Shown here piece by piece: positions 1-44,333 of a stretch of DNA of 44,333 nt. The stretch is from a plasmid: sequence record NZ_AP023325.1; one strand, given 5' to 3'. The position numbers and the translations under genes were made by a program. Every line of letters starts with the position of its first letter. Position 1 is the stretch's first letter. The notes under the pieces are model-generated. The model saw nothing but the letters and a program-made list of their open reading frames with translations. It did no database searches and was not told where the DNA came from.

Positions 1-2
1 GC

Positions 3-270
3 CTCGCCGAGTTCGAGCGAGAACTGATCGTCGAGCGCACGCGCGCCGGTCTGGAGTCCGCTCGGGCACGCGGTCGGCACGGCGGGCGTCCGTTCAAGAT
101 GACGCCGGCCAAACTGCGTCTCGCCAGCCGCGATGGGCAAACCGGAAACCAAGGTCGCGGAGCTATGCGCCGAACTCGGCGTGACGCGCCAAACACTCTA
201 CCGACACGTCACGCCGAAGGGCGAGATCAGGCCCGATGGTGAAAAGCTGTTGGCGCGAGGGCGCCGATAG
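3..270 (+). CDS. tnpR: Serine resolvase (TnpR of transposon 1), C-terminal part continuing from the window end. Catalytic-domain end (LAEFERELIVERTRAGLESARARG) in frame 3, then the HTH (MGKPETKVAELCAELGVTRQTLYRHVTPKGE) in frame 1, implying a 1-bp indel near 125-135.
   Basis: Own translation. Conserved resolvase motifs. The window end (…GRLIFAIFA + g) joins the window start (gc ctc gcc…) in frame to give IFAGLAEFERE. Confidence 0.8.
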
Positions 271-293
271 CAGTCGGCTGAAGCTGCTCAGGT

Positions 294-1073
294 TCAGAGC
301 GACGATGCCGTAACGTAGGTTCCTACCGCAATCACGACGGCGGCAAAGCCACGTTCGAGCAGCCCCTTACGGGTGCCGAGAACCTTGCCCAATGCAATAC
401 CGCCGATCGTTCCAGCGACGCCGCCCACGACCAGCATCGCGGTCACGCTCCAGTCGACCAGCCCCGACAGGGCGTAGGACAAGGCGGTGGTCAACCCCAG
501 CGCGCTGACGACGACCAGCGACGTGCCGATCGCGAAGGGCAGCGGCATCGCGGTCGCGAGGATCAGCCCCGGCACGATCAGGAAGCCGCCCCCGATCCCG
601 AAGAAGCCGGCGGCAAGCCCGACGCCCAGCCCGATCGGAACCAAGCGCGGCAGCAGCGTCGAGGCGCTATCGCGGGTCAGTCGCACGTCCGGCGCTTCCG
701 CCGTGCGGCGCTTGCGCAACATCGACAAACCGACGCCAATCATCAGAAGCCCGAACAGGACAAGCAGTCGCTTGCCGTCGAACGCCTTGCCCAACTCCGC
801 CCCCAGCGCCGCGCCGATCATTCCGGAGACGGCGAAGACACTGGCGCACCGCCATTTCACGCGGCCCGCTCGCGCATGGCCGACCAGGCTGGCAAGCGCA
901 TTGACGGTGACGGCGACAGCGGCCGTCCCGATCGCAGCGTGCGGTGATCCGACGCCGACAACATAGATCAGGAGTGGCACGGCGAGGATCGACCCGCCTC
1001 CGCCGACAAGGCCGAGGATCAGGCCAATCACGCCGCCCGATGCAAGCGCGGCAAGGGTGGCAGCGGTGTCCAC
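294..1073 (-). CDS. TauE/SafE (DUF81) family sulfite/anion exporter-like membrane protein, 259 aa, intact.
   Basis: ORF track. Glycine-rich multi-TM repeats (GGGGSILAVPLL…, GIGGGFLIVPGL) typical of TauE/SafE. It sits in a BigR-type operon. Confidence 0.8.
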   Translation of the reverse strand: MDTAATLAALASGGVIGLILGLVGGGGSILAVPLLIYVVGVGSPHAAIGTAAVAVTVNALASLVGHARAGRVKWRCASVFAVSGMIGAALGAELGKAFDGKRLLVLFGLLMIGVGLSMLRKRRTAEAPDVRLTRDSASTLLPRLVPIGLGVGLAAGFFGIGGGFLIVPGLILATAMPLPFAIGTSLVVVSALGLTTALSYALSGLVDWSVTAMLVVGGVAGTIGGIALGKVLGTRKGLLERGFAAVVIAVGTYVTASSL

Positions 1074-1080
1074 GATCGCC

Positions 1081-1598
1081 TCAGGCTGTCGCGCGCCGGT
1101 TCCAGGGCATGACGCGCAGCAGGTTGGCCATGCCGCACCACCCCGTCACGCCCGCGAACATCAGCCCCGCCCCGACGAACGCCGACAGCCCGAAGAAGCC
1201 GGGAGCGACGAACGTGCCGAGCAGAACGCCGATCAGCACCAGCCCACCGGCGGTAATCTGCACCTGCCGCATGATTTCCAACGGCTGCGACCGATCGGCG
1301 ACGGTGGGCTGTCCTGCCTGCCGCCACGCATCGATGCCGCCGCCCAGATATAGGCCGGCGCGCCACCCGCTGCCGCGCCGAGCTGCGCCGCATTGGCGGC
1401 GGTGCGCATCCCGGACTTGCAGTGAAAGACGACCGGACGATCGTCGCGCGGGAGATCGCCGATCCGGTCGAGCGGCACGTTCATCGCGCCGGGAATGCGT
1501 TCGCGCGCATGCTCGTCGGCACCGCGAATGTCGATCAGGCGCGCACCGGCATCGATCGCGGCACGGGTATCGTCGGGAGAAAGGGTCGCGAGCGTCAT
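1081..1598 (-). CDS. YgaP-like rhodanese (sulfurtransferase) fused to a C-terminal DUF2892 two-TM domain. The reading frame is broken by a 1-bp deletion at ~1346-1352 (…GGAPAYI / [35 protein letters not shown]…).
   Basis: Own translation of both frames. Rhodanese active-site loop [11 protein letters not shown]. The frames rejoin exactly if one c is restored in cctatatc(c)tgggc. Confidence 0.75.
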
Positions 1599-1602
1599 CG
1601 CA

Positions 1603-1899
1603 TCAATCCTTGCAGTAGAGCTGGTAGAGAGTGCCGAGCAGCGTTTCGACGCGGGCATCCGCGATGGCGTACCAGAGCGTCTGGCTCTCCCGCCGGTAGG
1701 TGACGAGACCCTCGTCGCGCATCCTCGCCGTGCTGCGAGCAGGCCGACTGCGACAAGCCGACATCACGGGCCAGATCGCCGACCGTCATCTCGCCATGCT
1801 CGACCAGCTTGCACAGCAGCATCAGCCGGCGAGCATTGCCGATCGCCTTCAGCGTGTCGGCGACCTGCCCGGCCTTCGCCTCGAATGTCGCCAGTCCAT
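1603..1899 (-). CDS. ArsR/SmtB-family (BigR-like) HTH repressor, ~99 aa, with two apparent 1-2-bp indels (~1729-1731 and ~1890).
   Basis: Own translation: …AKAGQVADTLKAIGNARRLMLLCKLVEHGEMTVGDLARDVGLSQSA | VSQHLARMRDEGLVTYRRESQTLWYAIADARVETLLGTLYQLYCKD. Classic ArsR wHTH, recovered by shifting frame. Confidence 0.65.
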
Positions 1900-1951
1900 C
1901 GGCGGTTTGAGCATCATCGCCACTCCATTAGGTGTTGCTTATGTAGCACCA

Positions 1952-1965
1952 GCTAATATATTAGC
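1952..1965. promoter_or_regulatory. Perfect 14-bp palindrome GCTAATATATTAGC in the divergent arsR/MBL intergenic region (flanked by TTGCT…AGCAA). Candidate ArsR/BigR operator.
   Basis: Seen in sequence. It sits between divergent promoters, ~20 bp upstream of the GGAGA RBS of the MBL gene. Confidence 0.5.
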
Positions 1966-1985
1966 AAGCGCTAACGGAGAAAATC

Positions 1986-2861
1986 ATGACTCAGCCCCTC
2001 ATCGAGGCGTTTTTCGACGAGCCGACCAATACGATTAGCTACCTCGTCGGCGATCCCGCGACACGGACTGCGGCGGTGATCGATCCAGTCCTCGACTTCG
2101 ACATGGCGAGCGGCGTCGCCGACACGCGCTCGGCCGAGCGGATCGTCGCCTTCGCCCGCGAGCAGGACTGGCGGATCGCGATGGTGCTGGAGACGCACGC
2201 TCATGCCGATCATCTGTCGGCCGCACCCTTCATCAAGGCGCATACAGGCGCATGGATCGGGATCGGCGCGCATATCCGCGACGTGCAGAAAATCTTCCGC
2301 CCCGTGTTCGCGATGGATGATCTGAAAACGGACGGCTCGGACTTCGACCGCCTGTTCGAGAATGGCGACCAGTTCGCGATCGGGGCGCTGGCGGTCGAGG
2401 TGCTGCATGTCCCCGGCCACACCCCGGCCGACGTGACCTATCTGATCGGCGATGCGGCGTTCGTCGGGGATACGCTGTTCATGCCCGACTATGGCACCGC
2501 CCGCGCCGACTTCCCGGGCGGGGATGCGCGGACGCTCTATCGCTCGATCCGCCGGCTATTGGCGCTGCCCGACGAGACGCGACTGTTCCTCTGCCACGAC
2601 TACAAGGCACCGGGTCGCGACGACTATCGCTGGGAGACGACGGTGGGCGAGCAGCGACGGTCGAGCGTCCACGTCCATGACGGTGTGAATGAGGACGACT
2701 TCGTCGCCATGCGCGAGCAGCGTGACGCCGGGCTATCCGTGCCCAAGCTCCTGCTGCCCTCGATCCAGGTCAACATCCGCGCGGGCCATTTCGATCAGGC
2801 GGAGGCGAACGGTGTCACCTACTTGCGTATTCCGGTAAAATGGAAAGCCGGCCATCCGTGA
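1986..2861 (+). CDS. MBL-fold metallo-hydrolase, ETHE1/Blh-like persulfide dioxygenase (291 aa, intact).
   Basis: ORF track. ETHAHADH (HxHxDH) motif. GGAGA RBS 6 nt upstream. Divergent from an ArsR gene, as in bigR-blh loci. Confidence 0.75.
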   Translation: MTQPLIEAFFDEPTNTISYLVGDPATRTAAVIDPVLDFDMASGVADTRSAERIVAFAREQDWRIAMVLETHAHADHLSAAPFIKAHTGAWIGIGAHIRDVQKIFRPVFAMDDLKTDGSDFDRLFENGDQFAIGALAVEVLHVPGHTPADVTYLIGDAAFVGDTLFMPDYGTARADFPGGDARTLYRSIRRLLALPDETRLFLCHDYKAPGRDDYRWETTVGEQRRSSVHVHDGVNEDDFVAMREQRDAGLSVPKLLLPSIQVNIRAGHFDQAEANGVTYLRIPVKWKAGHP

Positions 2862-2890
2862 TGTCATACGATCGCTGACACGGCTTTGTG

Positions 2891-2928
2891 CTTAGCGTAC
2901 GTTTTCGACCATCCTCTCACCGGTCCCC
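2891..2928. repeat. 38-bp terminal inverted repeat of Tn3-family transposon 1 (cttagcgtacgttttcgaccatcctctcaccggtcccc), followed by the TSD GTTCT (2929-2933).
   Basis: Perfect reverse-complement match to 40857-40894. Canonical GGGG…ACGCTAAG Tn3-family IR architecture. Confidence 0.85.
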
Positions 2929-4218
2929 GTTCTGGCGGCCCTTCACCGACATTCCCGATATCGACATGGACACGGCCGCGATCGTCCGCGCCTGGAGCGC
3001 GGCGCGCGACGCGGTGCTTACGATCCTACGCGCGAAAGCCGCCGCGCCCCTGGATGCGATGGAGCTGTCGCCAGAATGCATCGCCGCGATCGACGCCTAT
3101 GACGTTCATCGCGCGATGGTTGCTGACCTCTCGGACGCGCTCCTCGCCCGCAATCCATCGATCGCCATCGTCAAGGAACAGGCCGCAGTCGCCGACATAG
3201 CCACGCTGTCCGACGACCTCGCGAAGCTCACCGCTGTAAGGACGCGGCACCAGACACCCACCGCCGCGCTTTGCGATGCATACCTCGGGGAGAAAGCGGC
3301 CAAGAAGGCGACGGAAAAATTACGCGATGAGGCACGCGCCGCGCTCGACCAATATCGGGGAGGTGTCTTCCCCGCCTACGAGGCCGCGATCAACGACTAT
3401 CTGGGCCGCTTCAACGCCGGTTTTCGGCTTGGCTCCGTCACGTCGGTGAACAACCGGGGCGGATCGTCCGCCAGCTACAGCGTACTCATCAACAACGTCG
3501 CGGTCGCGCTGAGCGCCGATGGTGGCCCTTCGTTCAAGAACACGCTCAGCGCCGGTGATCGAAACGCCCTCGCCTTGGCCTTCTTCTTCGCCTCGCTCGA
3601 TCAGGACGCCCGGTTGGCGGAAAAGGTCGTGGTCATCGACGATCCCATGACAAGCCTGGATGAACATCGGCGGCTCACGACGGTCCAGAGATGCGCCGGC
3701 TATATGGCCGGGTACGTCAGATGATCGTGTTATCTCATTCCAAGGCGTTTCTCTGCGCCGTGTGGGACGGCGCGGATCGAATGGCTCGCTGCGCCCTTCA
3801 GATCGTGCGAAGCGGCGGGGGATCGACGCTCGCGCCCTGGGACGTGCGGCAAGACACGCTCACGCCGCACGATCGCCGGCACGAGCTGGTGCGGGAATAT
3901 CTCCGGACCAGCGATTCCGCGCGCGAGCGCGAGGTCGCTGCGGCGCTCCGTCCAATCCTAGAAGCGTTCATGCGGGTGGCTCACCCCGAAACCTTCCCGC
4001 CAGGCACACTGCTTGGCCCATTCATTGCCATATGCCAGCAGCGGCATGATGGACCCGGCGAGATACTATCCCCGGTTGCGACGACCGAGCTGCGCGCGCT
4101 GCTCGATTACGCCAACACCTTCCATCACGATACGAACCCGGCTTGGGAAACCGCCCTCATCAACGATCGGGAGCTGCTTGGCTTCGCTACCCGGACGATT
4201 GCCTTCGCTTCGCGGTAA
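2929..4218 (+). pseudogene. 3' half of an AAA_13/RloC-PrrC-like ABC-type ATPase gene cut by transposon 1. Carries the ABC signature LSAGDRNALALAFFFASL, Walker B/D-loop VVVIDDPMTSLDEHR and a ~170-aa C-terminal domain of unknown function. Has an additional 1-bp frameshift at ~3690.
   Basis: Own translation. Once the transposon and one TSD copy are removed it continues in frame from the 5' half at 39853-40856 (…VENREFW|RPFTDIPDID…). Confidence 0.7.
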
Positions 4219-5049
4219 CTAGACCTGACGCAGCTCGTCCAGAAGCTCGTCAGCACATGTTCGAGGTCCGGGAACACCGGATGCTCTTGGAAGTGCCGGG
4301 TCAGCTCCGTGTCGATCGTCTCTGGAGACTTGGCGTCCTCCTTCGACTTTTCAGCCCATTTCCGCCACGGGTGCAACGTGTCCCAAGGCGACCGCTTATT
4401 GGCGCGGGTGGTGGCGTCGTCGCCATGCTTGCCCAAGCCATAGAGGATGCTCGTCTCGCTGTTCCAGATCGGTCGGAACAGGTGGATCATGTAATCCTCG
4501 GCGGCCGTCTCCCATCCGCTCTGCACCACGAGCGAGCGAAACTCGAAATCCGCCAGTCCAGCGTCGTGGTGGCCGTGCCGATGTTCTTGCGGTGATCGGA
4601 CAGCCTACCACAAAGCCGCGGTCCCTGTTCCAGCGGCGTGCGCGCGTTGTTGATCGCCGGCGCGGCCGGCCGACATAGATGGGCGTCTCGCTACCGCTGA
4701 TCGGCGCGTAAAGCGGGAAGGGGCCGTTGTAATAGATGGCGTAGATGCCCGACCCGTAGAAGCGCGGTATCTCGGCCAACGGGTGCCGCTGCTGCGCGAC
4801 CAGCGCGAGCGACACGAACCGCCCTACCACCTTGGGGTTGCTCGGATCGAAGACGGCCGATGGCTGCCGGATCGGATCGAGCGTGTTCAGGAACGAACCC
4901 AGCTCCTGGATCACGGCGCGAATCTCTTTCTCAAGCGCGCGCCGCCGTGGAGCCGACAGCGTGGTCGCGGCCGTCTGCTCCATGAGACTGTCGAGATTGG
5001 CGCGCAGCTCGGCGATGGGCGACGGCGCGGGAGTAGGCTTGCGGCTCAT
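4125..5049 (-). CDS. GIY-YIG restriction endonuclease (Eco29kI-like), frameshifted. The true 3' end may be at 4219.
   Basis: GIY…YVG motif (FYGSGIYAIYYNGPFPLYAPISGSETPIYVG). Immediately downstream of, and overlapping, a C5-MTase gene. Confidence 0.5.
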
Positions 5050-6229
5050 GCGGCGACCAGATCCTCGCCACGTTCGCGCCGATCGCGTGGGCGAGTTGTA
5101 CCGGAACCGCGTTGCCGAGCTGACGCATGGATTCAGTCCATGACCCGTGAAAGCGGAAGGTATCGGGGAAGGTTTGCAGGCGGGCACTCTCCCTCACGCT
5201 GAAATACCGCACGCTGCCATCCGCCCGGCGAAGCATGTTCTCGCCACGGCACGCCATGCACGCCGGCCTTCAACGTCTTCGCCGGCTCGTCCATCGGACT
5301 GCCAGTGTGCCCGACATAGCTACGCGCGCCGCCCTGGAAGCGATGGTTGAGGCACTTGGCCGCCAGTTCCGGCGCGAGCTGGGGGTCCGGCAGGTCGCCG
5401 ATCGCGTCGCGGACCGTCAGCCAAGGTGCCGTCTCGGGCTTCTCGATCAACATGCGGCCGCGGGCAAGAAGGCGAGCGTCCAGCAGCCGATCGCGCACCG
5501 CGACCTCGTGCCGGTCCCAATACTCGCCCGATCGAACCTGGTCCCACAGCAGCGCGTCCAGCGAATGAGTATGCTCCGGGAAGGACCATTCGATGCCAAG
5601 ATCGGCGCGGAAGCCGACGAACACAACGCGCTCGCGGCGCTGTGGCACACCGTGGTTCGCCGCGTTGAGGACGCGATAAACGACGTTGTAGCGCAACTCG
5701 TCTTGGCTGCCCCTAGCCGTGTGATGCCGCTCCGGCGCACCATGTGGTCGCTCCACGCCTCGCCCGGCAGCGGCGTCAGCTCGGGATAGGTAAGCTGGTG
5801 AACGATATGGGCGAGATAGGTCGCGAAGCTCGCGCGGGTCAGCCCCTTCACGTTCTCGAACACGAATGCCCTTGGCCGCGTCTCGCGCACGACGCGTACC
5901 GCCTCCGGCCACATGTCGCGGGTATCGGCATGGGCGCGATGCTTGCCGCCAAGCGAGAAAGGCTGACAGGGCGGCCCGCCGCTCACGAGGTCGATCTTGC
6001 CCTCGTGCTTCCGAAAATCGACCTTGCGAATGTCGCCCTCGATCGGCTCCGGCCACCGTCCGATACCACCCGTCTTGGCGCGGCGGTTCTCCCGGATCGT
6101 GTCGCAGCACCAACGGTCCCACTCAACGATCTGCACCGGCTTGAAGCCGGCCTTGCTGATGCCCATGCCCAGGCCCCCGGCCCCGGCGAACAATTCAATG
6201 GCGCGCATGGTCGACTCCCTCGCCTTCAA
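5040..6229 (-). CDS. DNA cytosine-5 methyltransferase (Dcm-type) with at least 2 frameshifts.
   Basis: Motifs I ELFAGAGGLGMG, IV GGPPCQPFS, VI ENV, VIII QRRERVVFVG, X RESARLQTFPD…GNAVPV, spread over three frames. Confidence 0.8.
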
Positions 6230-13025: not shown

Positions 13026-13146
13026 GGGGCACCTCAAGGTTTGTCATATGGACAGCGGCAGTCGGAACAAATGGTCAACAAAAGCCTGAGCGTTGCCGCA
13101 AAGTATATTAAGTTTCGTGGGTTTGTGAGGTTGGACGAGTTGGAAG

Positions 13147-14605: not shown

Positions 14606-14718
14606 ATGTCGCAGATGTGCATTGGAACACGGCTGATTAGCAACAGACATTTGCGACAGCGTCCGCCCTCGTGTGTAAACGCTCGCGCTAAATGGCGGCG
14701 TTCTGATCGCGCTATTTG

Positions 14719-16996: not shown

Positions 16997-17109
16997 ACCG
17001 GCCTGTTCGACGTAAATCTACCCGGTAAAGAAAACTAGGGCAACATAGACCTGCCGATGACGACTTTCTTCCCAAACCGCGCCCGATCGGGGCGCCACCG
17101 GCCCTACGC

Positions 17110-17681: not shown

Positions 17682-17844
17682 CGACGCTCGCCGACAAATA
17701 GCGCGATCAGAATGCCGCCACTTAGCGCGAGCGTTTACACCTCGTGGCGTGACCGGTCAGGGCCGCTGTCACGAAACTTGAGAGTTACGCGACACCTCGC
17801 ACGTGTCGGCCATAAACTATACGCTCCCGGACAGGGGGTGATCG

Positions 17845-20798
17845 ATGGCCAGACGCGATCTGTTAACGGGCGACGAACGCCGCGCGTTGTTCGGCGTGCC
17901 CCTCGACCATGCCTCGCTCGCCAAGCATTACACGGTTGCCGATGAGGACCGGCCACTGATCGAAGCGAAGCGCGGCGACGCCAACCGGCTCGGCTTCGCG
18001 CTGCACCTCGCCCTGCTGCGTCATCCCGGCTTCGGCATACGCCACGACGATGTCGTCCCCGATTTTCTGATCCGGCACCTGGCCGCGCAACTCGACATCG
18101 CGCCCACAGCGTTCGAGGGCTACGCGCATCGCGCCCAGACCCGGCTCGAACACGCCCGGGAGGCGATGGAGCGTTTGCGCCTGCGCGCGTTCGAGGCGGC
18201 CGACGTCCCCGGCGCGCTCGGCGCAGCCACCCGCGCGGCGGAAGCGACCGAACGGGGCAAGCCGATCGCCGCGCAGTGCTGGGCCATTTGCGTGCTGCCC
18301 GGATCGTTCTGCCCGCGCCCGCCCGTATCGAGCGGATCGGGGTGGCGGGGCGCGCCATGGCGCGCCGCCTCGCGGCCGACACGCTGGTCGATGCGCTTGC
18401 TCCGGAGCAGGTGACGGGGCTGGATGCGTTGCTGATCGTGGACCAGATCGCAGCACGACGCCGCTCGCGTGGCTGCGCGACACGTCGGACAGCCCGACCG
18501 CGCGCAATCTCGCCGGCATTCTCGCCCGGCTCGCGCACGTGCGCCGGCTCGGGCTCGACCCGGGCATGGCCGGCCGCATCCACGAGCACCGCTTCGAGCA
18601 GCTCGTGCGCGAAGGCCACGTCGCGCCCGCGTTCCTCCTGTCCGACTACTCGCTCCGCAGAAGGCGCGCGACACTCGCCGCAGCCGTCATCGACCGGAAG
18701 CGCGGCTCGCGGACGCCGCGATCGAGATGTTCGGCAAGCAGACCGGCCTCCTGTTCGCCGGGCGGGCCGCGCAGAAGCGCGGCATCGAGGCGACCACACG
18801 CGACGTGAACCGGCTCATGCGGCTGCTGGGCGCCACGGTCGGCGCACTCCGGGTCGCGCGCGAGGACGGGTTGGACGTCTGGGCGGCGCTCGACGACGGG
18901 GTGGGCTGGACGAGGCTTCTGGACGCCGAGAGCGAGGCGACCGCGATCGCCGACCTGACTCGCGACGAGCCGCTGATCCGCGCGGCGGGGCGCTACATGA
19001 CGATGCGGCGCTACGCGCCCGCGTTTTTTGACGCGTTCCGGTTCAAGGCGGCAGGCTCGCGCGACGGCGTGCTCGGCGCGATCAAGGTCGTGCGCGCGCT
19101 GAACGCGACCGGGCGGCGAGACGTACCGGCCGATGCGCCCATGCCGTTTTCCAGAAAATGGAAGGCGGCGATCACCGAGGGCGGCGTCATCGACCGCCGT
19201 CGCTACGAAACCGCCACGGTCGCGACCGTGCGCGAGCGGCTCCAATCGGGCGACCTGTGGGTGGAGGGTACGCGCGAACACCTGCGCTTCGACAGCTATA
19301 TGCTCCCGCCCGGCAAAGCGGCCGAGATCGCGCTCACGCTGCCGTTCGACACCGACGTCGGCCGCTACTTGAGGGCGCGCCAGCTGCTCGACTGGCGGTT
19401 GCGCCGGTTCGCAGGCTCGCTGAAGCGCGGCACGCTCGACGGCGTGGAGCTGCGGGGCGGTAACCTCAGGGTCAGCCCGCTCGCGGCCGTAACGCCCGCT
19501 GCGGCCGACAGGCTGGACGCGGCCGTCGACCGGCTCATGCCCCGCGTGCGCATCACCGAGCTGCTCGCCGAGGTGGAAGCCCGCACCGGGTTCCTGTGCG
19601 CATTTCCGGAACTGCGCTCGGGCCGCGCCCACTCCAACCCGCAGGCCGTGCTCGCCGCGATCCTGGCAGACGCGACGAACCTCGGCATCGAGCGCATGGC
19701 CAACGCCAGCCGTGGCGTCACCTACGCCCAGCTCGCCCGACGCATGGCTGGTACGTATCGGAAGAGAATTACGCGGCAGGGCTGCGCCATCTGGTGGACG
19801 CGCAAGCCGCGCTGCCGCTCACGCGCGTGTGGGGCGACGGCACCGCGTCGAGCTCGGACGGGCAGTTCTTCCGCTCGGGCAGGCGGGCGCGGCCGGCAGC
19901 ACCAACGCGCGCTACGACCGGGAGCCGGGGCAGAAGATCTACGCCCATGTCGCCGATACCTACGCGCCCTACCATGTCCGGCTGATCTCGGCGACCGCGG
20001 CGGAGGCGCCCTATGTGCTGGACGGGCTGGTCGCGCACGGCTGCGGCATCGAACCCGCGACCCACTATGCCGATACGGGCGGCGCGTCCGACCACGTGTT
20101 CGCGCTCGCGCACCTACTCGGCTTCCGGTTCGTGCCCCGCCTGCGCGATCTAGCCGATCGCCGGCTCGGCCTGTTCCCGGGCACGGCCCGCCCCGAGGCG
20201 CTCGCGAAGCTGATCGGGCGCCCGTTCAACATCGCTGCCATCCGCGAAAGCTGGGACGAGATCGTCCGGCTCGCCGCGTCCGTGAAGGCCGGCGTGGTGC
20301 TACCGTCGGTCATGCTGAAGAAGCTGGCCGCGTACCGTCGCCAGAACCGGCTCGACTTCGCGCTCCAGAGCTGGGCCGGATCGAGCGCACCCTGTTCACG
20401 CTCGACTGGCTAGAATCCGTGGCGCTCCGCCAGCAGTGTCAGGCTGGGCTCAACAAGGGCGAGGCGCGTCACACGCTCGCCCAAGCCGTGTTCGTCCACA
20501 AACAGGGCCGCCTGCGCGATCCGCAGTTCGAGAACCGGCGCTGAAAGCGTCCGGGCTGACGCTGGTCACCGCCGCGATCGTGTACTGGAACACGCTTTAC
20601 ATGGGCCGCGCCGTCGAGCATCTGCGCGCCAGCGGCGAGCCCGCGCCCGACGAGCTGCTCGCCCATGTAGCCCCGCTAGGCTGGCGACACATCAGCCTGA
20701 CCGGCGATTACCTCTGGCAAAACGCCGCTGCCGAGCTCGATCAAGACGGCTACCGCGCACTCAACATCGCCGGCGGACCCGGAGCCAAGGTGGCCTGA
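17845..20798 (+). pseudogene. tnpA: Tn3-family transposase TnpA of transposon 2, broken into at least 4 frames.
   Basis: N-terminus MARRDLLTGDERRALFGVPLD…, central and C-terminal (…HVAPLGWRHISLTGDYLW) TnpA regions in consecutive ORF-track pieces. Confidence 0.75.
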
Positions 20799-36599: not shown

Positions 36600-36968
36600 G
36601 TGAGAATCCCGCTCAAGACAGCGCTCGCCGCTGCCGCTCTGGTCAGCGGCACGGCGCTGGCCCAGACCAGCGACTTCGCCACCGTGATGGCCGGTGCGAT
36701 GCAGCGCATGCATCAGGCGATGGCGGTCCCATCGACCGGCGATCCCGATCGCGACTTCGCCGCGATGATGATCCCGCATCATCAGGGTGCGATCGACATG
36801 GCCGAGGCGGAACTCCGCTTCGGCAAGGACGAGCGGCTACGCCGCATGGCACAAGGCATCATCGTCGAGCAGCGGCAGGAGATTGCCGTGATGCAGGCCA
36901 TCCTGAACGAAAAGGGCGGCGCTCCCGCCGCTCCCCAGACCCACCATTCGGAAGGAACCCATCGGTGA
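36600..36968 (+). CDS. DUF305-domain periplasmic protein (associated with copper/metal resistance).
   Basis: Signal peptide. MIPHHQGAIDMA motif. Confidence 0.65.
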   Translation: MRIPLKTALAAAALVSGTALAQTSDFATVMAGAMQRMHQAMAVPSTGDPDRDFAAMMIPHHQGAIDMAEAELRFGKDERLRRMAQGIIVEQRQEIAVMQAILNEKGGAPAAPQTHHSEGTHR

Positions 36969-38103
36969 AGCAGCTGATCCTCGCAGCCCTTGCCGGCACC
37001 ATGCTGGCCCCCGTCGCGGCGACCGCGCAGCAGGTGCCGAACGCACAGCCCGACATGCCCGTCTCGTCCAGCGACCGGTTCTACACCTCGGACCAGTTTT
37101 CCAACACCGTGTCGGTCATCGATCCGTCGACCAACCGGCTTCTTGGCGTCATCAAGCTGGGCGATCCGACGCCGATGAACCTCAGCCCGCTCTATCGTGG
37201 GCAGCTGCTGGTCCACGGCATGGGCTTCTCGCCCGACCGGCGGACGCTCGCCGTCGTGTCGATTGGATCGAATGCGGTCAGCTTCATCGACACCGCCACC
37301 AACAGCGTTCGCCACACGACCTATGTCGGCCGCAGCCCGCACGAGGCCTTCTTCCGCCCCGACGGCCGGGAGGTCTGGGTCAGCGTGCGCGGCGAGGACT
37401 ATATCGCCGTCCTCGATGGTACGACCTACAAGGAGACGGGCCGCATTCCCGTCCCGAACGGTCCCGGCATGACGATCTTCTCGCCGGACGGGAAGTATGG
37501 CTATGTCTGCTCCAGCTTCTCGCCCGAAACCGTGGTGATCGACACCACGTCGAAGCAGATCGTCGGCCGGGTGAAGCAGGAAAGTCCCTTCTGCCCCGAC
37601 ATCGCCGCGACGCCCGATGGCAAGCAGGTCTGGCTGACGCTGAAGGACATCGGCAAGGTCATGGTGTTCAACGCGAAACCTCCGTTCGCGGTCCTGAAGA
37701 GCTTCGCGACAGGCGCGATCACCAATCACGTCAATATCGCGAAGACGCCGCGTGGCCAGTTCGCCTATGTGACGGTCGGCACCGAAAATGTCGTGAAGGT
37801 GTTCCGCACCGACGATTTCACCCAGGTCGCGACGGTCCCGGTTGGAGCGCTGCCGCACGGGCTATGGCCCTCGGGCGACGGCAGCCGCATCTATGTCGGC
37901 TTGAGAATGCCGATGCGGTTGCCGCGATCGACACCGCGACGAACAAGGTCATCGCGACCATCCCGATCGGGCAAGGCCCGCAAGGGGTCGCCTATGTTCC
38001 AGGCGCGGTGCCGTTAGGCACCGGCATGGCCAATCTCCAACCACTCGCCAAGGCGGGTGAGAAGGTTCAGCTGATGCTCTCCGGCACCGGACGGAGCCAG
38101 TGA
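36965..38103 (+). CDS. YVTN-family beta-propeller repeat protein, 1 frameshift ~37900.
   Basis: Repeated …NTVSVIDPSTN… / …DTATN… YVTN-like blades. Signal peptide. Confidence 0.6.
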
Positions 38104-38588: not shown

Positions 38589-39167
38589 ATGCTGATCGGC
38601 TATGCGCGTGTCTCGACGGCCGATCAGGATTTGACGTTGCAACTCGATGCACTGGCAAAGGCCGGGTGCGAGAAGGTGTTCACCGACAAGGCGAGCGGCG
38701 CGAAGATCAACCGGCCGGGGCTGATCGAGGCGCTGGGTTTCGCACGCGCCGGCGACACGCTGGTAATCTGGAAACTCGATCGGCTCGGTCGCTCGATCCA
38801 AGGCCTGATCGCGCTGGCGGCGGACCTGTCGGCACGGGGGATTGATTTTCGCTCGCTGACGGACGGGTTTGATACATCGACGGCATCGGGCCGGCTCCTG
38901 TTCCATATCCTCGCCTCGGTCGCGGAAATGGAGCGCGAGCTGGTCAAGGAGCGGACGATCGCCGGCTTGGCGGCTGCGCGCGAGAAGGGCAGCACGGGAG
39001 GGCGCAAGCTGGTGATGACGCCCGACAGGATCGACACGGCCTGCAAGTTGCTCGCCGTGGGCGAGAAGCCGGCGCGGATCGCGAAGCTGCTGGGCGTTGG
39101 CCTCTCGACCTTCTACCGGCAATTCCCGGCGAGCGAACGGGAGGCCGCGTCCAGCACCGAAGGGTGA
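38589..39167 (+). CDS. Serine recombinase/resolvase, intact (192 aa).
   Basis: MLIGYARVSTADQDLTLQ…, C-terminal HTH. Confidence 0.85.
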   Translation: MLIGYARVSTADQDLTLQLDALAKAGCEKVFTDKASGAKINRPGLIEALGFARAGDTLVIWKLDRLGRSIQGLIALAADLSARGIDFRSLTDGFDTSTASGRLLFHILASVAEMERELVKERTIAGLAAAREKGSTGGRKLVMTPDRIDTACKLLAVGEKPARIAKLLGVGLSTFYRQFPASEREAASSTEG

Positions 39168-39427
39168 TGCCTAGCCGCCCGCGCGTCCAACTATGCCGGC
39201 GATTGTGGGGCCACCTTCACGGTGCGAGGCCACTGAAACACCAGCGTGTCGCTCTCGTCACGAACCTCGACGCGCTCCGCCAAACCCATGTCAATGATCT
39301 CGCGGGCGTGATCTTGGACGGCGGTCAGGGATGACCTTTCCAAGTTTCACTACCATCCCAGCGGTGCCCGTTATTGAAGCGGATGATCTGGTAATCCATC
39401 GATCGGTCCTTGGGTGTAGAGGTGAAG

Positions 39428-39856
39428 ATGAACAAGCTGACCAGCGACGCCATTGAGGTCGTCAACCGCAACGCGCTCGTCACCGTCGCGCTGAACCAAG
39501 GCTATAACGCCTATCTGCCAGTCTATGACAACGGCATCGACCTGATCCTGCATAACGAGGCGTCGGGCGACACCCGACTTATTCAGCTCAAGGGGCGGTG
39601 GACGATCGACCGCAAATACATAGGCCGCGACATTTGGATCGCGTTTCCCGATCGTGGATGCTGGTATGTGGCCCCGCACGATGAGATGATGCGGCTCGGC
39701 GAGCGACACACCATGACGGAAAGCTGGGCGAGGGGCACCTATAGCAAGAGCCCGCTTAGCAAGACGGATTGCGAGGAGCTGGCCGACTATCGTTTCGGCG
39801 ATCCCGATCTTGTGATCGCGGAAGCGGAAAAGCTGGAGAGGATGGATGACGCATGA
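39428..39856 (+). CDS. Small PD-(D/E)xK-like (Hjc/restriction-endonuclease-fold-like) protein, ~142 aa. Its stop overlaps the ATG of the downstream ATPase gene.
   Basis: GAGGTG SD. Motif YDNGIDLILHN…(11)…IQLKGR (D…Q/E-x-K). Lower GC. ATGA coupling to the next gene. Confidence 0.5.
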   Translation: MNKLTSDAIEVVNRNALVTVALNQGYNAYLPVYDNGIDLILHNEASGDTRLIQLKGRWTIDRKYIGRDIWIAFPDRGCWYVAPHDEMMRLGERHTMTESWARGTYSKSPLSKTDCEELADYRFGDPDLVIAEAEKLERMDDA

Positions 39857-40856
39857 CGATCGAACGACTTCAGCTTCTTCGTAACGTCGGTCAGTTCGAT
39901 TCCGTCACCACCGGCGCGCAAACTCCGCTTACCAGGCTATCGCTAATCTATGCCGAGAACGGTCGTGGCAAGACGACACTCGCCACCATCCTGCGCTCGC
40001 TCGGCACGGGCGACACGGCGCTGATCGATGAGCGGCGGCGGCTCGGTTCCGCTCATGCGCCGCATATCGTCCTGGCTTCGGCCGGAGCGCCATTCACCTA
40101 TCAGAACGGCGCGTGGTCGGTGCTTCATCCCGACATAGCCGTGTTCGATGACGGGTTCGTCGCCGCCAACGTCTGCTCTGGCATCGCGATCGAAACGGCG
40201 CACAAGCAGAACCTGCATGAGCTGATCTTGGGAGCGCGCGGCGTCGCGCTGAACAGCGCCCTTCAAGGCCACGTCGAACGGATCGAGGAGCATAACCGCG
40301 CGCTACGCCTGAAGGGTGATGCCATACCCGCTGCGGCTCGCGGCACCCTGACCGTCGATGCTTTCTGCAAGCTCGCGGTCAATCCGGTGATTGACGCCAG
40401 AATCGCTAGGGCAGAGCAAAGCCTATCTGCGGCCTGGGCCGCCGGTGCAATCCGGGTGCGCCCGGCCTTCACGGCGCTATCCCTACCAACCTTCGATCGC
40501 GATGGCCTGAATGCCTTGCTCGCGCGCGGCTTGCCAGCGTTGGAAGCGGACGCCGCCGCGCGGGTAAAGGCTCACCTTCGTCGCCTCGGTCGGGATGGGG
40601 AGACATGGGTAGGGAGGGCATGACGCGCATTGCCGGCGCGTCGCAAGACCAACCTGGCGAGATATGCCCATTCTGTGCGCAGGATCTCGCGGCTTCCCGC
40701 TGATCCGGCATTACCAAGCCTATTTCAGCGATGCCTATGCCGAGCTGCGCAACACGATCAACCAAATCGGGAAGGGGATCAACACGACGCATGGCGGCGA
40801 CGTGCCGGCGGCATTCGAACGAGCGGTGCGCGTCGCGGTAGAAAATCGGGAGTTCT
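39853..40856 (+). pseudogene. 5' half of the AAA_13/RloC-PrrC-like ABC ATPase gene. Walker A ENGRGKTTL, coiled-coil insert, CPFCAQDL zinc-hook-like motif. 1 frameshift ~40615. Cut at 40856 by transposon 1.
   Basis: Own translation. In-frame continuation at 2934 after removing the transposon and one TSD. Confidence 0.7.
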
Positions 40857-40894
40857 GGGGACCGGTGAGAGGATGGTCGAAAACGTACGCTAAG
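40857..40894. repeat. 38-bp terminal IR of transposon 1 (GGGGACCGGTGAGAGGATGGTCGAAAACGTACGCTAAG), preceded by the TSD GTTCT (40852-40856).
   Basis: Perfect inverted match to 2891-2928. Confidence 0.85.
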
Positions 40895-43869
40895 CGTCCC
40901 GGCTTTGCTGGTGGAGGCGCAGCGGCCTGAACCGCTCGCGAGGTTTGTCGATCTCGCCCCAGAGATAGTCGCCGGTGAGGCCGATATGCTCCCAGCCCAG
41001 AGGGGCGACGTGGGCGAGCAGCTCGTCGGGCACGTCGACGCCGCTGCCGCGCAGATGACGGACAGCTCGGTCGAGATAGACGGTGTTCCAGAGCGTCATG
41101 GCCGCGGTGACGAGGGTCAGGCCGGAGGCGCGATGGCGCTGGTTCTCGAAGGTGCGGTCGCGCAGTTCGCCGAGGCGGTTGAAGAAGATGGCGCGGGCGA
41201 GCGCGTTGCGGGCCTCGCCCTTGTTGAGAATGCTGCCGGTGCGACGACGCTGGTCGGGATCATCGAACCAGTCGAGCATGAACAGGGTGCGTTCGATCCG
41301 ACCTATCTCCGCAGCGCGCGGGCGACCGAGTTCTGACGCGGGAAGCCCGCCAGCTTGCGGAGCATGACCGAGGCGCTCACCGTGCCGGCGCGGATCGAGG
41401 CGGCAAGGCGCAGGGTTTCGTCCCAGTTCTCCTCGATCGCGCGGATCTTGACCGGACCGGCGACGAGCGGGCGCAGCGTCGGCCACGAGTCGAGCGGCGA
41501 CAGGCTGTAGAGCCGGCGCTCGTTGAGGTCGCGGATGCGGGGCGCGAAGCGGAAGCCGAGCAGATGGCACAGGCCGAAGACATGATCGACCGCGCCGGCG
41601 GTATCGGTCGCATGTTCGCGGATGACCAGCTCGCTTTCATGGTCGAGCAGGCCGTCGAGGACATGCGCGGCCTCGCCGGCATTGGCGGCGATGACCTTGG
41701 TGTGGAACGGCGTGAAGCGGTCGGTGACGTGGGTGTAGAACAGCACGCCTGGTTCGGTGCCATAGCGGGCGTTGTGATCGGCGCGGGCCTCGCCCTGACC
41801 ACCGGCACGAAAGAACTGCCCGTCCGACGACGATGTATCGCCCGGTCCCCAGACCGCCGCGAGCGGATGCGCGGTATGGCAATCGACGATCGCCGCCAGC
41901 GCCGACAGATAGGTTTCGTCGCGCACATGCCATTCCGCCGTCCAGCGCAGGCGAGACAACGTCAGCCCGCGCGAGCTTTCGGCCATGCGGCCCGGCCGAG
42001 GTTGGTCGCATCGGCGAGGATCGCACCCATCAGCGCGGACTGGTCGGAGGCGGGCGCCGCTGCGCGCATGGACGAAACGGTCGGCGAATCCCGACCATGC
42101 GGCGACCTCGACCAGCAGATCGGTGATTCGGACGCGCGGCAGCATCGCGTAGAGCCGGGCCTTTAGCGCATCGGCATCGTCGGACGGGGATCGCCGGATC
42201 GACGATATGAGCAACTGCCCGCGTTCGATCGTCACATCGACCAGCTCGCCCGCTGCGGCTGCGCGCTCCACCTCCGTCATGCGCCGGGCCAACAGGGTGC
42301 GGCGTTCCTCGTACCATTTGGAAAAGTCGGTCGGCACAACCAGGCGCAGATCGCCGCTCGCGCGCATCGCTTCGAAGGCGGGCATGGGCAGCTGATAGTC
42401 GTCGAGCGTGCGATAGGCGCGGCTGCCGTCCACCCAGATGCTGCCCGAGCCGAGCCGCTCGCGCAGGTGGGCGATCACTGCGATCTCATAGGCGCGCCGG
42501 TCTATCGTCCCTTCCGCCGGCTGCACGACCTTGCGCCAGCGCGGCTTGATGAAGCTGGTCGGCACTCGCTTCGGCAGGACCGATCGACCGTCGCGGTACA
42601 TCGTGCGCAGCACCTCGATCGCGCCGAGCAGCGGATCAGCCAACCGCGCGGTGCGGAAGGTGAAAGCGGCGAGAAACGTCGGGGCGAAACGCCGCACGGC
42701 GGGATAGCGTTCGACCACTTCTTCCAGCCCGTCATCGGCCGAGCGCGTCAGATCCTCGGCAAAGCGGATGCTGCGTTCGAGCTGATCCCAGCCCATCTTC
42801 GCGTCGATCGCGCGGAAGGCATCGCGCCCGCTCGCACGAGCATCTACCAGCAGGCGACCGAGCCGGGCATGGAAACGCGCGGTGTCCTTCAGCATCCGTG
42901 CCCGGCCGAGCAGCCGATCGGAGCGGGTGCGGTCGGCACGGCGGAACAGCGCGCCCACCATCTTCTCCACCATGACCAGCGCGGCGTCGGTCAACGTCGC
43001 TTCCATCTCGATCACGGAAGCTACGAGCATGGCGAGCCGGCGCGGACGTTCGAGACGCCGCAGGTGCTGGGCGGTGACGATGCCGGCGGTCCGCGCAATG
43101 ACGGCATAGCGAGCAGCATGGATACGTCGTGCTCGATCAGCCGCGATCCCGATGCCGCGCACGGTGTCGAGCCGTTCGACGATTCCCTTCAGGTCCGCGG
43201 CCGATGGTGCTTCCGGCCATTCGCGTATCCATCCTAGCCGGGTGCGCCCATCATCGTCGGAGGCGATCATGTGTTCGAGTGCGGCTTCCTGTTCGGTCGA
43301 ACAGTCGCGGATCAGATTGAATGGGCCGCCTTGCGCGCCCGTGTCCGCACGATGAGGGCGAGCCGTTCCAGCGTCGATGTCGCCGGCAGTACGATCCGGT
43401 CCGCCCGCAAGCGATCGACCATGCCTGTGACGATCGTCTCACCTCTATCAGTCGAAGCGGCAATCTCCGATCCCAGCGCCAGCATCGCCCGTACATCCAC
43501 CCGCGCGAAGGCGCGCAGACCGAGCAGAGCTTCGATCTCGGCCCGGTGTTCGCGCAATGTCGTGGGGCGCGTGGCATAGCCGGTGAAGTCGTCGGCTACG
43601 CACCCGATCTGATCGGCGAGCAGCGCGAGCATGGCGGCGGGCACCGCATCCCCCGTCAGTAGCCTGCGACCGGGATGACGCAGGTAGCAAAGCTGCACCG
43701 CATAGCCGAGCCGGTTCGCCCCGCGCCGACGTCGCGCCACCTGTGCCAGATCGTCGGGACCGAGCGTATAGAGCCGTTCGATCGTCGCGCGATCGGCAGG
43801 CGGGTCGAAGATCAGCAGCTGCGCGGGCGACAGGATGGTCTTGGTCGGCATCGGCTTCCTGTTCGTCAC
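40890..43869 (-). CDS. tnpA: Tn3-family transposase TnpA of transposon 1, ~990 aa over 3 frames (at least 2 frameshifts). Its C-terminus ends inside the IR.
   Basis: N-terminus [22 protein letters not shown]…, central 655-aa piece, C-terminus …[18 protein letters not shown]…. Confidence 0.8.
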
Positions 43870-43979
43870 GAAACAGGAAAGCGTACCCGTTCATGGAGCA
43901 TAGACCAGAAGACGGGTTATGTGACATTATCGCGATTGATCGACGGGCAATGCCGCTCCGTCACGTGAACGGACGTATA
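43870..43979. promoter_or_regulatory. res: Probable res site between divergent tnpA and tnpR. Contains TGTGACA-type repeats (TTATGTGACATTA, TATATGTGACAACG).
   Basis: Seen in sequence. Canonical position. Confidence 0.45.
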
Positions 43980-44333
43980 TGTGACAACGCAGATCGGTTA
44001 CGCGCGGGTGTCCAAGGCGGACGGCAGCCGTCCACGACCTGCAGCACGACGCGCTGGTCGCGGCCGGCGTCGATCCCGAGCATATCTATGAGGATGCCGC
44101 ATCGGGCCGGCTCGACAAGCGACCGGGACTGGACGCCTGCCTGAAGGCGCTGCGCCGCGACGACACGCTGGTCATCTGGAAACTCGATCGGCTCGGCCGC
44201 GATTTGCGCCACCTCGTCAATACGGTTGGTGATCTGACGAAGCGTGGCATCGGGTTGAAGGTGCTGGCGGGCGAAGGCGCGTCGATTGACACAACCACCG
44301 CCAACGGTCGGCTGATCTTCGCGATTTTCGCCG
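43980..44333 (+). CDS. tnpR: Serine resolvase TnpR of transposon 1, N-terminal part (GTG start). Indel at ~44030. Runs off the window end and continues at base 3.
   Basis: VTTQIGYARVSKADGS…DTLVIWKLDRLGRDLRHLV…GRLIFAIFA. Confidence 0.8.

What the first reader, a model, noticed from the sequence alone, without database searches (positions are those of the whole stretch)
39428..40856. Candidate two-gene defence locus (small PD-(D/E)xK-like protein plus RloC/PrrC-like ABC ATPase with a zinc-hook CPFC motif) inactivated by the transposon
Removing transposon 1 and one TSD copy fuses 39853-40856 to 2934-4218 in frame. The result is a ~760-aa protein with an ABC head (Walker A GRGKTT, signature LSAGDRNAL, Walker B VVVIDDP, D-loop SLD) and a coiled-coil insert bearing CPFCAQ. 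It also has a ~170-aa C-terminal domain of unknown function, which is where PrrC/RloC carry their anticodon nuclease. It is translationally coupled (ATGA) to an upstream 142-aa protein with a D-x12-QLK restriction-endonuclease-fold motif. I do not recognise this pairing as a named system. Its position on a plasmid next to a restriction-modification unit and resolvases fits a defence or abortive-infection role.
Basis: inference. Interest (0 to 1): 0.8.

Follow-up and report, generated by a model that had tools for sequence, protein, structure and literature searches.

The report
Transposon-split RloC-type gene, unrelated small neighbour
A Tn3-type transposon has cut an RloC-family gene (a Rad50-like ATPase fused to a HEPN RNase domain, a known kind of phage-defence or suicide nuclease) on a Sphingomonas-type plasmid, and the small gene in front of it is a chance neighbour, not a partner in a new two-gene system.

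Summary
The transposon insertion is real. It has perfect 39-bp inverted repeats and a 5-bp GTTCT duplication. The window is circular, and the 6405-bp element is 99.7% identical to a copy on a Sphingomonas paucimobilis plasmid. Removing it joins 39853-40856 to 2934-4218 in frame at the junction. The joined gene still needs three more 1-base corrections, and these match the window-wide error pattern of deletions only, at CCWGG sites and short homopolymers.

The two-gene idea fails. None of 65 genome loci with the small gene has the ATPase nearby, and none of 87 ATPase loci has the small gene. The pair occurs only in one plasmid lineage. This is a known kind of gene, and interest is low.

The parts
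39428..39856 (+). Small 142-aa ORF, probably of the PD-(D/E)xK fold. It is intact and is an independent mobile gene, not a conserved partner of the ATPase.
   Evidence: 87 homologues, none with a precomputed Pfam domain; invariant E10, D34, D38, Q53 and K55; only sub-threshold Pfam hits (PDDEXK_5, DUF4365, Mrr_cat_2); no co-occurrence with the ATPase.
39853..40856 (+). 5' part of the RloC-family gene (codons 1-336). It holds the N-lobe of the ABC head with Walker A (GRGKTT, 39961-39978), the first coiled-coil arm and the CPFC hook (40665-40676). It contains two apparent 1-base deletions at about 40612 and about 40696.
   Evidence: Homologues.
40852..40856 (.). Target-site duplication copy 1 (GTTCT)
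40857..44333 (.). Tn3-family transposon, first part. It holds the 39-bp inverted repeat (40857-40895), tnpA on the minus strand (split by apparent frameshifts) and the start of the resolvase gene, which runs across the window end.
1..2928 (.). Tn3-family transposon, second part. It holds the resolvase C-terminus, the cargo genes (TauE/SafE exporter, rhodanese, ArsR, MBL-fold hydrolase) and the 39-bp inverted repeat (2890-2928).
2929..2933 (.). Target-site duplication copy 2 (GTTCT)
2934..4218 (+). 3' part of the RloC-family gene (codons 336-763). It holds the second coiled-coil arm, the ABC signature LSAGDRNAL (3545-3571), Walker B VVVIDDP (3626-3646), the D-loop, the H-loop VLSHSK (3727-3744) and the C-terminal domain. 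It has one apparent 1-base deletion at about 3687, in a CCAGG site.
3838..4215 (+). C-terminal HEPN-fold domain (residues 638-763), carrying R675-x3-E679-x3-R683 (3946-3975) and N-x-F-H733-H734-D (4114-4140). This is the putative anticodon nuclease.
38589..39167 (+). Serine resolvase upstream of the small gene. It forms a conserved block with the small gene in the closest relatives.
   Evidence: Resolvase and HTH_7 domains. (97% and 94% identical resolvases upstream of the small gene in L013/L014 and L010/L011).
4125..6229 (-). Convergent type II restriction-modification unit: an Eco29kI-like endonuclease (4125-5187) and a C5 DNA methyltransferase (about 4931-6229). Both are split by apparent frameshifts.

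Best explanation
Window 39853-40856 plus 2934-4218 is a single gene of the RloC family (Pfam AAA_13, COG4694-type, PADLOC candidate PDC-S06).

Architecture (shown): a Rad50/SMC-like ABC ATPase head is split by a helical insert of about 380 aa that carries an invariant CPFC hook. A C-terminal HEPN-fold domain of about 125 aa follows.

Mechanism (inferred by analogy with characterised RloC, Geobacillus kaustophilus; PMC2610378, PMC3458546): the hook and a DNA-responsive ATPase keep the HEPN RNase silent. A phage-related DNA signal switches it on. It then cuts tRNA anticodon loops, stops translation and aborts the infection. The gene often acts as a back-up to a restriction-modification system.

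State in this plasmid (shown): a 6.4-kb Tn3-family transposon has inserted inside codon 336. This separates Walker A and the hook from the signature motif, Walker B and the RNase domain, so the gene is dead.

Three further frameshifts in the gene are most probably sequencing errors.

The upstream 142-aa gene is a separate small mobile gene, probably of the PD-(D/E)xK fold. In this lineage it travels with the resolvase gene, and here it merely abuts the RloC-type gene. The 4-base overlap is local to this lineage and is not the mark of a conserved operon.
For: Insertion and reconstruction:
- Inverted repeats and target duplication.
- Full-length 99.67% match of the transposon to NZ_CP065669.1 across the window ends.
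- Intact 763-aa homologues at 93-94% identity and 100% coverage; 2340 hits in all, and the 120 listed are almost all 758-782 aa.

Family:
- AAA_13, 92.1 bits against a cut-off of 36.
- PDC-S06, E 1.3e-54 over residues 3-682.
- End-to-end BLASTP with the 770-aa Rhodoferax ferrireducens T118 plasmid protein: 30% identity, E 8e-84. CPFC, LRxxLExF and YAxxFHHDTNP are conserved. I equate that protein with RloC orthologue no. 39 (YP_515976) of the founding paper by its organism, its length of 770 aa and its helicase-like flank. The accession itself was not cross-checked.
- The landmark positions run parallel to those of the characterised GkaRloC. Walker A lysine K40 against K44; hook C272/C275 against C291; Walker B D571/D572 against D572; triad R675/E679/H733 against R692/E696/H737.

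Structure:
- Full-length model, pLDDT 82; the best PDB matches are SMC and Rad50 heads with coiled coil.

Context:
- 12 of 90 related loci have hsdS immediately upstream. Eight of these have hsdM further upstream and six have hsdR immediately downstream, the prrC arrangement. Three more follow an XhoI/Eco57I-type restriction-modification unit.
- The window and L010 have convergent type II restriction-modification units.

Single-gene status:
- 0 of 65 and 0 of 87 loci show co-occurrence with the small gene.
- DNA homology to L001 and L012 begins at the start codon (39853) and ends 3 nt after the stop (4221).
- The resolvase and small gene form a conserved block followed by different cargo.

Error signature.
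Against: - No enzymatic activity has been shown for this subfamily, and PDC-S06 is only a candidate in PADLOC.
- The C-terminal domain on its own hits no Pfam or PADLOC profile, including PrrC.
- The canonical HEPN Rx4-6H motif is not obvious. The invariant motif is N730-x-F-H733-H734-D735. The Glu-to-His spacing is 53 residues, one more than the 36-52 range published for RloC.
- The ATGA overlap, and its retention in L010/L011, leaves room for a lineage-specific functional link with the small gene.
- That the three frameshifts are errors is inferred from the error pattern. It has not been shown by re-sequencing.
Confidence: 0.75

Rival explanations
1. One reading: the 142-aa PD-(D/E)xK-like protein and the ATPase form a new, dedicated two-gene defence system. 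They would be translationally coupled, with the small nuclease acting as effector, DNA tether or silencer.
For: The genes overlap by 4 bases (ATGA). The same pair, with the same overlap, is intact in two metagenomic plasmid contigs, L010 and L011 (small gene 95% identical, ATPase 91%). Rad50-like ATPases often work with a nuclease partner (general knowledge of Mre11/SbcD).
Confidence: 0.06
2. The gene is an ABC-HEPN protein of the wider AAA_13 group, but it is not an anticodon nuclease. Its HEPN domain could cut another RNA (mRNA or rRNA), or it could be a non-catalytic binding module. Its role need not be antiviral; it could for example act in plasmid competition or addiction.
For: The C-domain has no profile hit to PrrC or any other family. 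The motif N-x-F-H-H-D differs from canonical Rx4-6H. PDC-S06 has no reported experimental test in the papers found. HEPN domains have many different RNA targets (PMC3710099).
Against: The protein is homologous along its full length, including the C-domain motifs, to a protein matching an entry in the RloC orthologue list, which was screened for the ACNase triad. R-x3-E...H is invariant in 48 sequences. A subset of loci has the prrC-like position inside type I restriction-modification operons.
Confidence: 0.15
3. The three extra frameshifts are real mutations. The gene was, or has become, a decaying pseudogene, and the reconstruction overstates what the plasmid ever encoded.
For: As sequenced, the frame breaks at about 40612, about 40696 and about 3687. 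A gene inactivated by a transposon is free to decay.
Against: All three are single-base deletions in GGGG, CCCC or CCAGG. There are no nonsense changes, and the corrected protein is 93-94% identical to intact orthologues. The transposon copy shows the same signature against a 99.67% identical reference: 16 bases deleted, 0 inserted, and only 5 of 13 CCWGG sites left. Other 99%-identical plasmid segments are also 9-18 bases longer than the window.
Confidence: 0.1

Closest known systems
[quoted passage not shown] 2012, PMC3458546)
   Same: The order of parts is the same: an ABC ATPase head, a helical insert with a CxxC hook, and a C-terminal RNase domain with R-x3-E...H. The size is similar (763 aa against 683-897 aa for the listed orthologues). 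The protein is homologous end to end with the 770-aa Rhodoferax T118 protein that fits list entry 39 (30% identity, E 8e-84). It occurs as a single gene on mobile DNA, sometimes next to or inside restriction-modification loci.
   Different: It is only distantly related to the characterised enzyme, and a direct comparison was not made. The Glu-to-His spacing is 53 residues (published range 36-52), and the His lies in an FHHD motif, not the 'Ser-His' often seen. No activity data exist for this subfamily. This copy is disrupted.
PrrC (E. coli anticodon nuclease embedded in the type Ic EcoprrI locus)
   Same: Both have an ABC ATPase followed by a C-terminal HEPN-type nuclease with the R-x3-E...H pattern. 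12 of 90 relatives sit between hsdS and hsdR exactly as prrC does.
   Different: PrrC (about 400 aa) has no coiled-coil or hook insert. The PADLOC PrrC model matches only the signature to Walker B stretch (E 4e-7). The window copy lies next to a type II unit, not inside a type I unit.
PADLOC PDC-S06 (single-gene phage-defence candidate)
   Same: It is the best profile match (PDLC04895, E 1.3e-54, residues 3-682 on profile positions 2-704 of 784).
   Different: PDC-S06 is a computational candidate class with no described mechanism. The match does not cover the last 80 residues or so.
Rad50 / SbcC / SMC heads with a zinc hook
   Same: The ABC head fold and a long antiparallel helical insert with a CxxC apex (Foldseek top hits; Rad50 profile hits).
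   Different: The insert is much shorter, there is no Mre11/SbcD partner, and there is an extra C-terminal HEPN domain.
Small stand-alone PD-(D/E)xK nucleases (Pfam PDDEXK_5, DUF4365, Mrr_cat_2; Hjc-like E...D...(E/Q)xK pattern). These are the comparison for the 142-aa protein.
   Same: Invariant E10, D38 and Q53-x-K55 lie in the expected order. Members of the family give sub-threshold hits to three families of that clan. UniRef names one member a 'PD(D/E)XK endonuclease domain-containing protein'.
   Different: No hit reaches a curated threshold. There is no PDB sequence match. The structure was not predicted here. Gln replaces the usual acidic residue in the (D/E)xK motif.

Membership tests
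RloC (as screened in PMC2610378: ABC ATPase motifs, CXXC, ACNase triad) | ABC ATPase motifs: Walker A, signature, Walker B/D-loop and switch His | tested here: met
   GRGKTT, LSAGDRNAL, VVVIDDP, SLDEH and VLSHSK are present and invariant in 48 homologues. AAA_13 scores 92.1 bits. The model matches SMC/Rad50 heads.
RloC | Coiled-coil insert in the ATPase domain with a CXXC hook | tested here: met
   C272-P-F-C275 is invariant. The model shows helices across residues 115-494, with the CPFC in a loop at 264-282. Zinc binding itself was not tested.
RloC | C-terminal Arg-X3-Glu-X36-52-His catalytic triad | tested here: inconclusive
   R675-X3-E679-X53-H733 (H734 is also invariant). The spacing is one residue beyond the published range. 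The same motifs align with the Rhodoferax protein that fits list entry 39.
RloC | Homology to a recognised RloC orthologue over the full length | tested here: met
   BLASTP of P0002 against the 770-aa Rhodoferax ferrireducens T118 plasmid protein gives 30% identity and E 8e-84 over residues 3-760. That protein fits Table S1 entry 39 (YP_515976, 770 aa, helicase-like flank). The match is by organism, length and flank, not by accession.
RloC | Nuclease domain is a HEPN domain (PMC3710099) | tested here: met
   [not shown]
RloC | Excises the tRNA wobble nucleotide, with the ACNase governed by the hook and a DNA-dependent ATPase | not testable with these tools
   This is a biochemical property. 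It is inferred here only by family membership.
PrrC | An ABC-ACNase of about 400 aa without a coiled-coil insert, always inside a type I restriction-modification locus | tested here: not met
   The protein is 763 aa with a helical insert of about 380 aa. The PrrC model matches only residues 540-615. The window gene is flanked by a type II unit.
Pfam AAA_13 (PF13166) | Score above the gathering threshold | tested here: met
   92.1 bits against a cut-off of 36, E 4.7e-26. Precomputed PF13166 is recorded on all listed homologues.
PADLOC PDC-S06 | Match to a PDC-S06 model; single-gene candidate | tested here: met
   PDLC04895, E 1.3e-54, plus 13 other PDC-S06 models. No conserved neighbour was found except type I restriction-modification genes in a subset of loci.
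Dedicated two-gene system (small PD-(D/E)xK protein plus ATPase) | Conserved co-occurrence of the two genes across lineages | tested here: not met
   0 of 65 small-gene loci have the ATPase. 0 of 87 ATPase loci have the small gene. The only pairs are L010 and L011.
PD-(D/E)xK nuclease fold (142-aa protein) | Core motif residues in the right order, and a recognisable fold or profile match | tested here: inconclusive
   E10, D38 and Q53-x-K55 are invariant in 20 sequences. Pfam hits are sub-threshold only (PDDEXK_5 0.056, DUF4365 0.008, Mrr_cat_2 0.15). There is no PDB, PADLOC, NCBIfam or PHROGs hit.
Tn3-family transposon | Terminal inverted repeats of about 38 bp starting GGGG, a 5-bp target duplication, and tnpA plus a resolvase | tested here: met

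The most novel reading that the evidence does not exclude
In this one plasmid lineage (the window, L010 and L011), the resolvase-linked 142-aa PD-(D/E)xK-like protein has been recruited as a working partner of the RloC-type protein. It might tether it to DNA, silence it or act as a second effector, in the way restriction enzymes silence PrrC. That would make a lineage-specific two-component variant of RloC.
Probability: 0.06. Interest if true: 0.45.

Novelty: new member of a known kind. Interest (0 to 1): 0.2.

Why it matters
It matters little beyond annotation. The result shows that the plasmid once carried an RloC-type abortive-infection gene next to its restriction-modification unit, and that a sulfur-metabolism Tn3-family transposon destroyed it.

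The useful points are practical:
- This 763-aa RloC subfamily is large (873 clusters at 50% identity carry its C-domain), uniform in length and untested. It sometimes sits in the prrC position of type I restriction-modification operons, so an intact member would be a reasonable candidate for experimental work on RloC-type defence.
- The apparent pseudogenes throughout this window are largely base-calling artefacts at CCWGG sites and homopolymers. They should not be read as biology.

Tried and rejected
- Megablast of the joined locus against PLSDB plasmids found no match. Protein-level tblastn later found 39 plasmid records.
- For the 142-aa protein, Pfam, PADLOC, NCBIfam and PHROGs gave no hit. 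A profile search against PDB sequences gave none.
- The C-terminal domain alone gave nothing in Pfam. In PADLOC it gave only a spurious JetA hit (E 0.012).
- A profile of the whole protein against PDB sequences gave only weak Rad50 and BtuD hits on the signature to Walker B stretch.
- The afdb50 fold search of the C-domain was not available on the machine. Whether RloC/PrrC models are its nearest structural neighbours therefore could not be tested.
- The paper search for 'AAA_13' returned unrelated hits, because the underscore is ignored. Papers that mention PDC-S06 only list it.
- I looked for the RloC orthologue listed for Shewanella ANA-3 plasmid 1 by reading 75 kb of its annotation. I did not find it and dropped the attempt once the Rhodoferax orthologue turned up.
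- The promoter and terminator scan of 39100-40100 found nothing.
- I considered that the small gene might be an antitoxin or immunity gene for the HEPN domain, and rejected the idea. It does not co-occur with the ATPase, and it is not of the MNT type that pairs with HEPN toxins.
Full report
**1. What is in the sequence**

The ORF list and the raw sequence show a 142-aa ORF at 39428-39856. Its stop overlaps the ATG at 39853 of a second ORF (ATGA).

At 40857 a 39-bp sequence begins: GGGGACCGGTGAGAGGATGGTCGAAAACGTACGCTAAGC. Its perfect inverted copy ends at 2928. Both copies are flanked by GTTCT, at 40852-40856 and 2929-2933.

The element they delimit, 40857..44333 plus 1..2928 (6405 bp), carries these genes:
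- a Tn3-family transposase;
- a resolvase, whose gene runs across the window ends;
- a TauE/SafE exporter;
- a rhodanese;
- an ArsR regulator;
- an MBL-fold hydrolase.

It aligns as one uninterrupted block with a 6421-bp copy on Sphingomonas paucimobilis plasmid NZ_CP065669.1 at 99.67% identity. The window is therefore a circular replicon and the insertion is real. Other parts of the window match Sphingomonas and Sphingobium plasmids (TraA relaxase, TraD and others).

**2.

Removing the element and one GTTCT joins 40856 to 2934 in frame, inside codon W336 (...ENREFW|RPFTD...). The joined sequence is still not one open frame. As sequenced it uses frame 0 up to about 40612, then frame 2 for 28 codons (this stretch includes CPFC), then frame 1 up to about 3687, then frame 0 again.

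Alignment with three intact relatives places the three breaks at single missing bases:
- GGGG>GGG at about 40612;
- CCCC>CCC at about 40696;
- CCAGG>CCAG at about 3687.

The same signature runs through the transposon copy. Against its 99.67% identical reference the window lacks 16 bases, has none extra and differs by only 9 substitutions. Most of the deletions lie in CCAGG sites: the reference has 13 CCWGG sites and the window copy retains 5. Two other 99%-identical plasmid segments are likewise 9 and 18 bases longer than the window.

A deletion-only pattern focused on a Dcm-like methylation motif and on homopolymers is what systematic long-read base-calling error looks like (my inference). 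I therefore treat the three extra frameshifts as artefacts, along with the split look of tnpA, the C5 methyltransferase and the Eco29kI-like gene. This has not been shown by re-sequencing.

**3. The large gene is one gene, and it is an RloC-family gene**

The corrected 763-aa protein finds intact proteins of 758-763 aa at 92-94% identity over 100% of its length. One example is Sphingomonas sp. PL-96. There are 2340 significant hits in all, and the 120 listed are almost all 758-782 aa.

Profile matches:
- Pfam AAA_13 above threshold (92.1 bits, cut-off 36).
- PADLOC candidate family PDC-S06, E 1.3e-54.
- No NCBIfam model above its cut-off.
- JGI auto-names several members 'wobble nucleotide-excising tRNase'.

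An AlphaFold model of the 93%-identical P0002 (pLDDT 82) shows an ABC head whose two lobes (residues 1-114 and 495-637) are separated by a helical insert. The invariant C272-P-F-C275 sits in a loop of that insert. A helical C-terminal domain follows. The nearest solved structures are SMC and Rad50 heads with coiled coil.

**4. The C-terminal domain**

- TTHA0636;
- the HepN toxin SO_3166;
- AF0298;
- MNT-associated HEPN toxins;
- Csm6 and Csx1;
- the sacsin HEPN domain;
- LsoA, RnlA and Las1.

Its invariant residues include R675-x3-E679-x3-R683 on one helix and N730-x-F-H733-H734-D735 after another. The founding RloC paper defines the ACNase triad as Arg-X3-Glu-X36-52-His. Examples are GkaRloC R692/E696/H737 and EcoPrrC R320/E324/H356. 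Here the spacing is X53.

The other landmarks run parallel to GkaRloC:

| Landmark | This protein | GkaRloC |
|---|---|---|
| Walker A lysine | K40 | K44 |
| Hook cysteine(s) | C272/C275 | C291 |
| Walker B aspartate(s) | D571/D572 | D572 |

A tblastn against plasmids picked up the 770-aa protein of the Rhodoferax ferrireducens T118 plasmid. Its organism, its length and its helicase-like flank fit entry 39 (YP_515976) of the paper's orthologue list, which was screened for ABC motifs, CXXC and the triad. I did not cross-check the accession. The two proteins align end to end (30% identity, E 8e-84), with CPFC, LRxxLExF and YAxxFHHDTNP conserved.

The C-domain occurs in 873 clusters at 50% identity. 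In the 150 listed it always lies at the C-terminus, mostly of proteins of about 760 aa; the shorter ones look like fragments.

**5. Context of the ATPase family**

I collected 90 loci of relatives: 80 metagenomic, 7 from IMG/VR, and L001, L010 and L012. The restriction-modification context was as follows.

| Context | Loci |
|---|---|
| hsdS immediately upstream (gap 0 or overlapping) | 12 |
| ...of those, hsdM further upstream | 8 |
| ...of those, hsdR immediately downstream | 6 |
| Following an XhoI plus Eco57I-type unit | 3 |

The hsdM-hsdS-X-hsdR order is the prrC arrangement.

In the window the gene converges on an Eco29kI-like endonuclease and a C5 methyltransferase. In L010 it converges on a BfiI-like unit. 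No other neighbour is conserved. This fits a single-gene module that often backs up restriction-modification, as described for RloC and PrrC.

**6. The small gene is not a partner**

Its family has 87 hits, none with a precomputed Pfam domain. Invariant residues are E10, R14, D34, D38, Q53, K55 and W58.

I searched for it in one genome per species and found 65 loci with 5-kb flanks (some cut short by contig ends). None contains a relative of the ATPase (tblastn, E 1e-5). In the other direction, none of the 87 ATPase loci contains any of 20 members of the small family, and 70 of those loci have at least 500 nt of upstream sequence.

The two closest ATPase orthologues lack it: L001, which is chromosomal and lies between rplA/rplK and nusG/secE, and L012, which is plasmid-like. 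Their DNA homology to the window begins exactly at 39853 and ends at 4221.

Neighbours of the small gene are heterogeneous:
- a NotI-like restriction-modification unit plus Vsr;
- a PrimPol/AlpA/integrase island;
- phage terminase;
- tyrosine integrases;
- an SRAP peptidase upstream with its own ATGA overlap;
- a type ISP enzyme plus DUF5131;
- GIY-YIG;

Its fold is probably PD-(D/E)xK, judging from the motif order and from sub-threshold hits to PDDEXK_5, DUF4365 and Mrr_cat_2.

**7. How it most likely works**

Shown:
- the architecture;
- the HEPN fold of the C-domain;
- the conserved residues;
- homology to an orthologue that fits the published RloC list;
- the restriction-modification-linked contexts;
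- the disruption by the transposon.

Inferred from the RloC literature: dimeric heads and hook-mediated contacts keep the HEPN RNase off. ATP hydrolysis stimulated by DNA ends or by phage-induced DNA damage turns it on. It then cuts tRNA anticodon loops and shuts down translation in the infected cell.

In this plasmid the insertion at codon 336 separates Walker A and the hook from the signature motif, Walker B and the RNase domain, so no functional product is expected.

**8. Novelty and score**

The gene is a new, broken member of a known kind. The proposed new two-gene system is not supported. Interest is low (0.2).

The most novel reading left open is a lineage-specific recruitment of the small protein as an RloC partner. 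I put it at about 6%.

Noticed in passing
Whole window; examples at about 41993, 44029, 125, 1346, 1729, 1893 and 3687: The window systematically lacks single or double bases inside CCAGG/CCTGG sites and short homopolymers when compared with 99%-identical plasmid copies (16 deletions, 0 insertions in 6.4 kb; only 5 of 13 CCWGG sites survive). This looks like long-read base-calling error at a Dcm-like methylated motif. It also implies that the host methylates CCWGG. Many apparent pseudogenes in the window (tnpA, the C5 methyltransferase, the Eco29kI-like gene, the ORF at 36965-38103) are probably artefacts of this.
   Followed up: partly
40857..44333 plus 1..2928: The Tn3-family transposon carries a sulfur-related cargo: a TauE/SafE sulfite exporter, a rhodanese, an ArsR regulator and an MBL-fold hydrolase. 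It is 99.67% identical to copies on two S. paucimobilis FDAARGOS_908 plasmids, so it has spread recently among Sphingomonas plasmids.
   Followed up: partly
L105, L108, L112, L113, L116, L122, L126, L128, L132, L140, L141, L163: In 12 of 90 loci, more distant members (about 50-55% identity) of the same 763-aa family lie between hsdS and hsdR of type I restriction-modification operons. This is the position prrC occupies in EcoprrI, even though these proteins have the RloC-type coiled-coil and hook insert.
   Followed up: partly
[not shown]
   Followed up: partly
L023, L026, L028, L037, L060 (upstream ORFs ending at 5001-5004): In several Sphingomonas genomes an upstream ORF of about 200-280 aa overlaps the small gene's start or abuts it. 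Those in L023, L026 and L028 cluster together, and the L028 one is an SOS-response-associated peptidase (SRAP); the L037 and L060 ORFs were not identified. Elsewhere the small gene sits beside phage terminase genes or NotI-like and type ISP restriction systems. Its function is unknown.
   Followed up: partly
Window 4125-6229 (minus strand): There is an Eco29kI-like (GIY-YIG type) restriction endonuclease and a C5 cytosine methyltransferase, convergent with the RloC-type gene. Both appear frameshifted, probably by the same sequencing errors.
   Followed up: partly
Window about 13000-20000: A second mobile region is 98.5-99.5% identical to segments of several Sphingomonas plasmids (S. naphthae, S. 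paucimobilis and others). Its annotated genes include a Tn3-family transposase, a Mu-transposase C-terminal domain protein, an AAA ATPase and recombinases. I did not examine it further.
   Followed up: no
L159-L165 (IMG/VR contigs): Seven viral or proviral contigs encode relatives of the RloC-type protein (42-60% identity). This agrees with earlier reports of ABC-HEPN genes in prophages.
   Followed up: no
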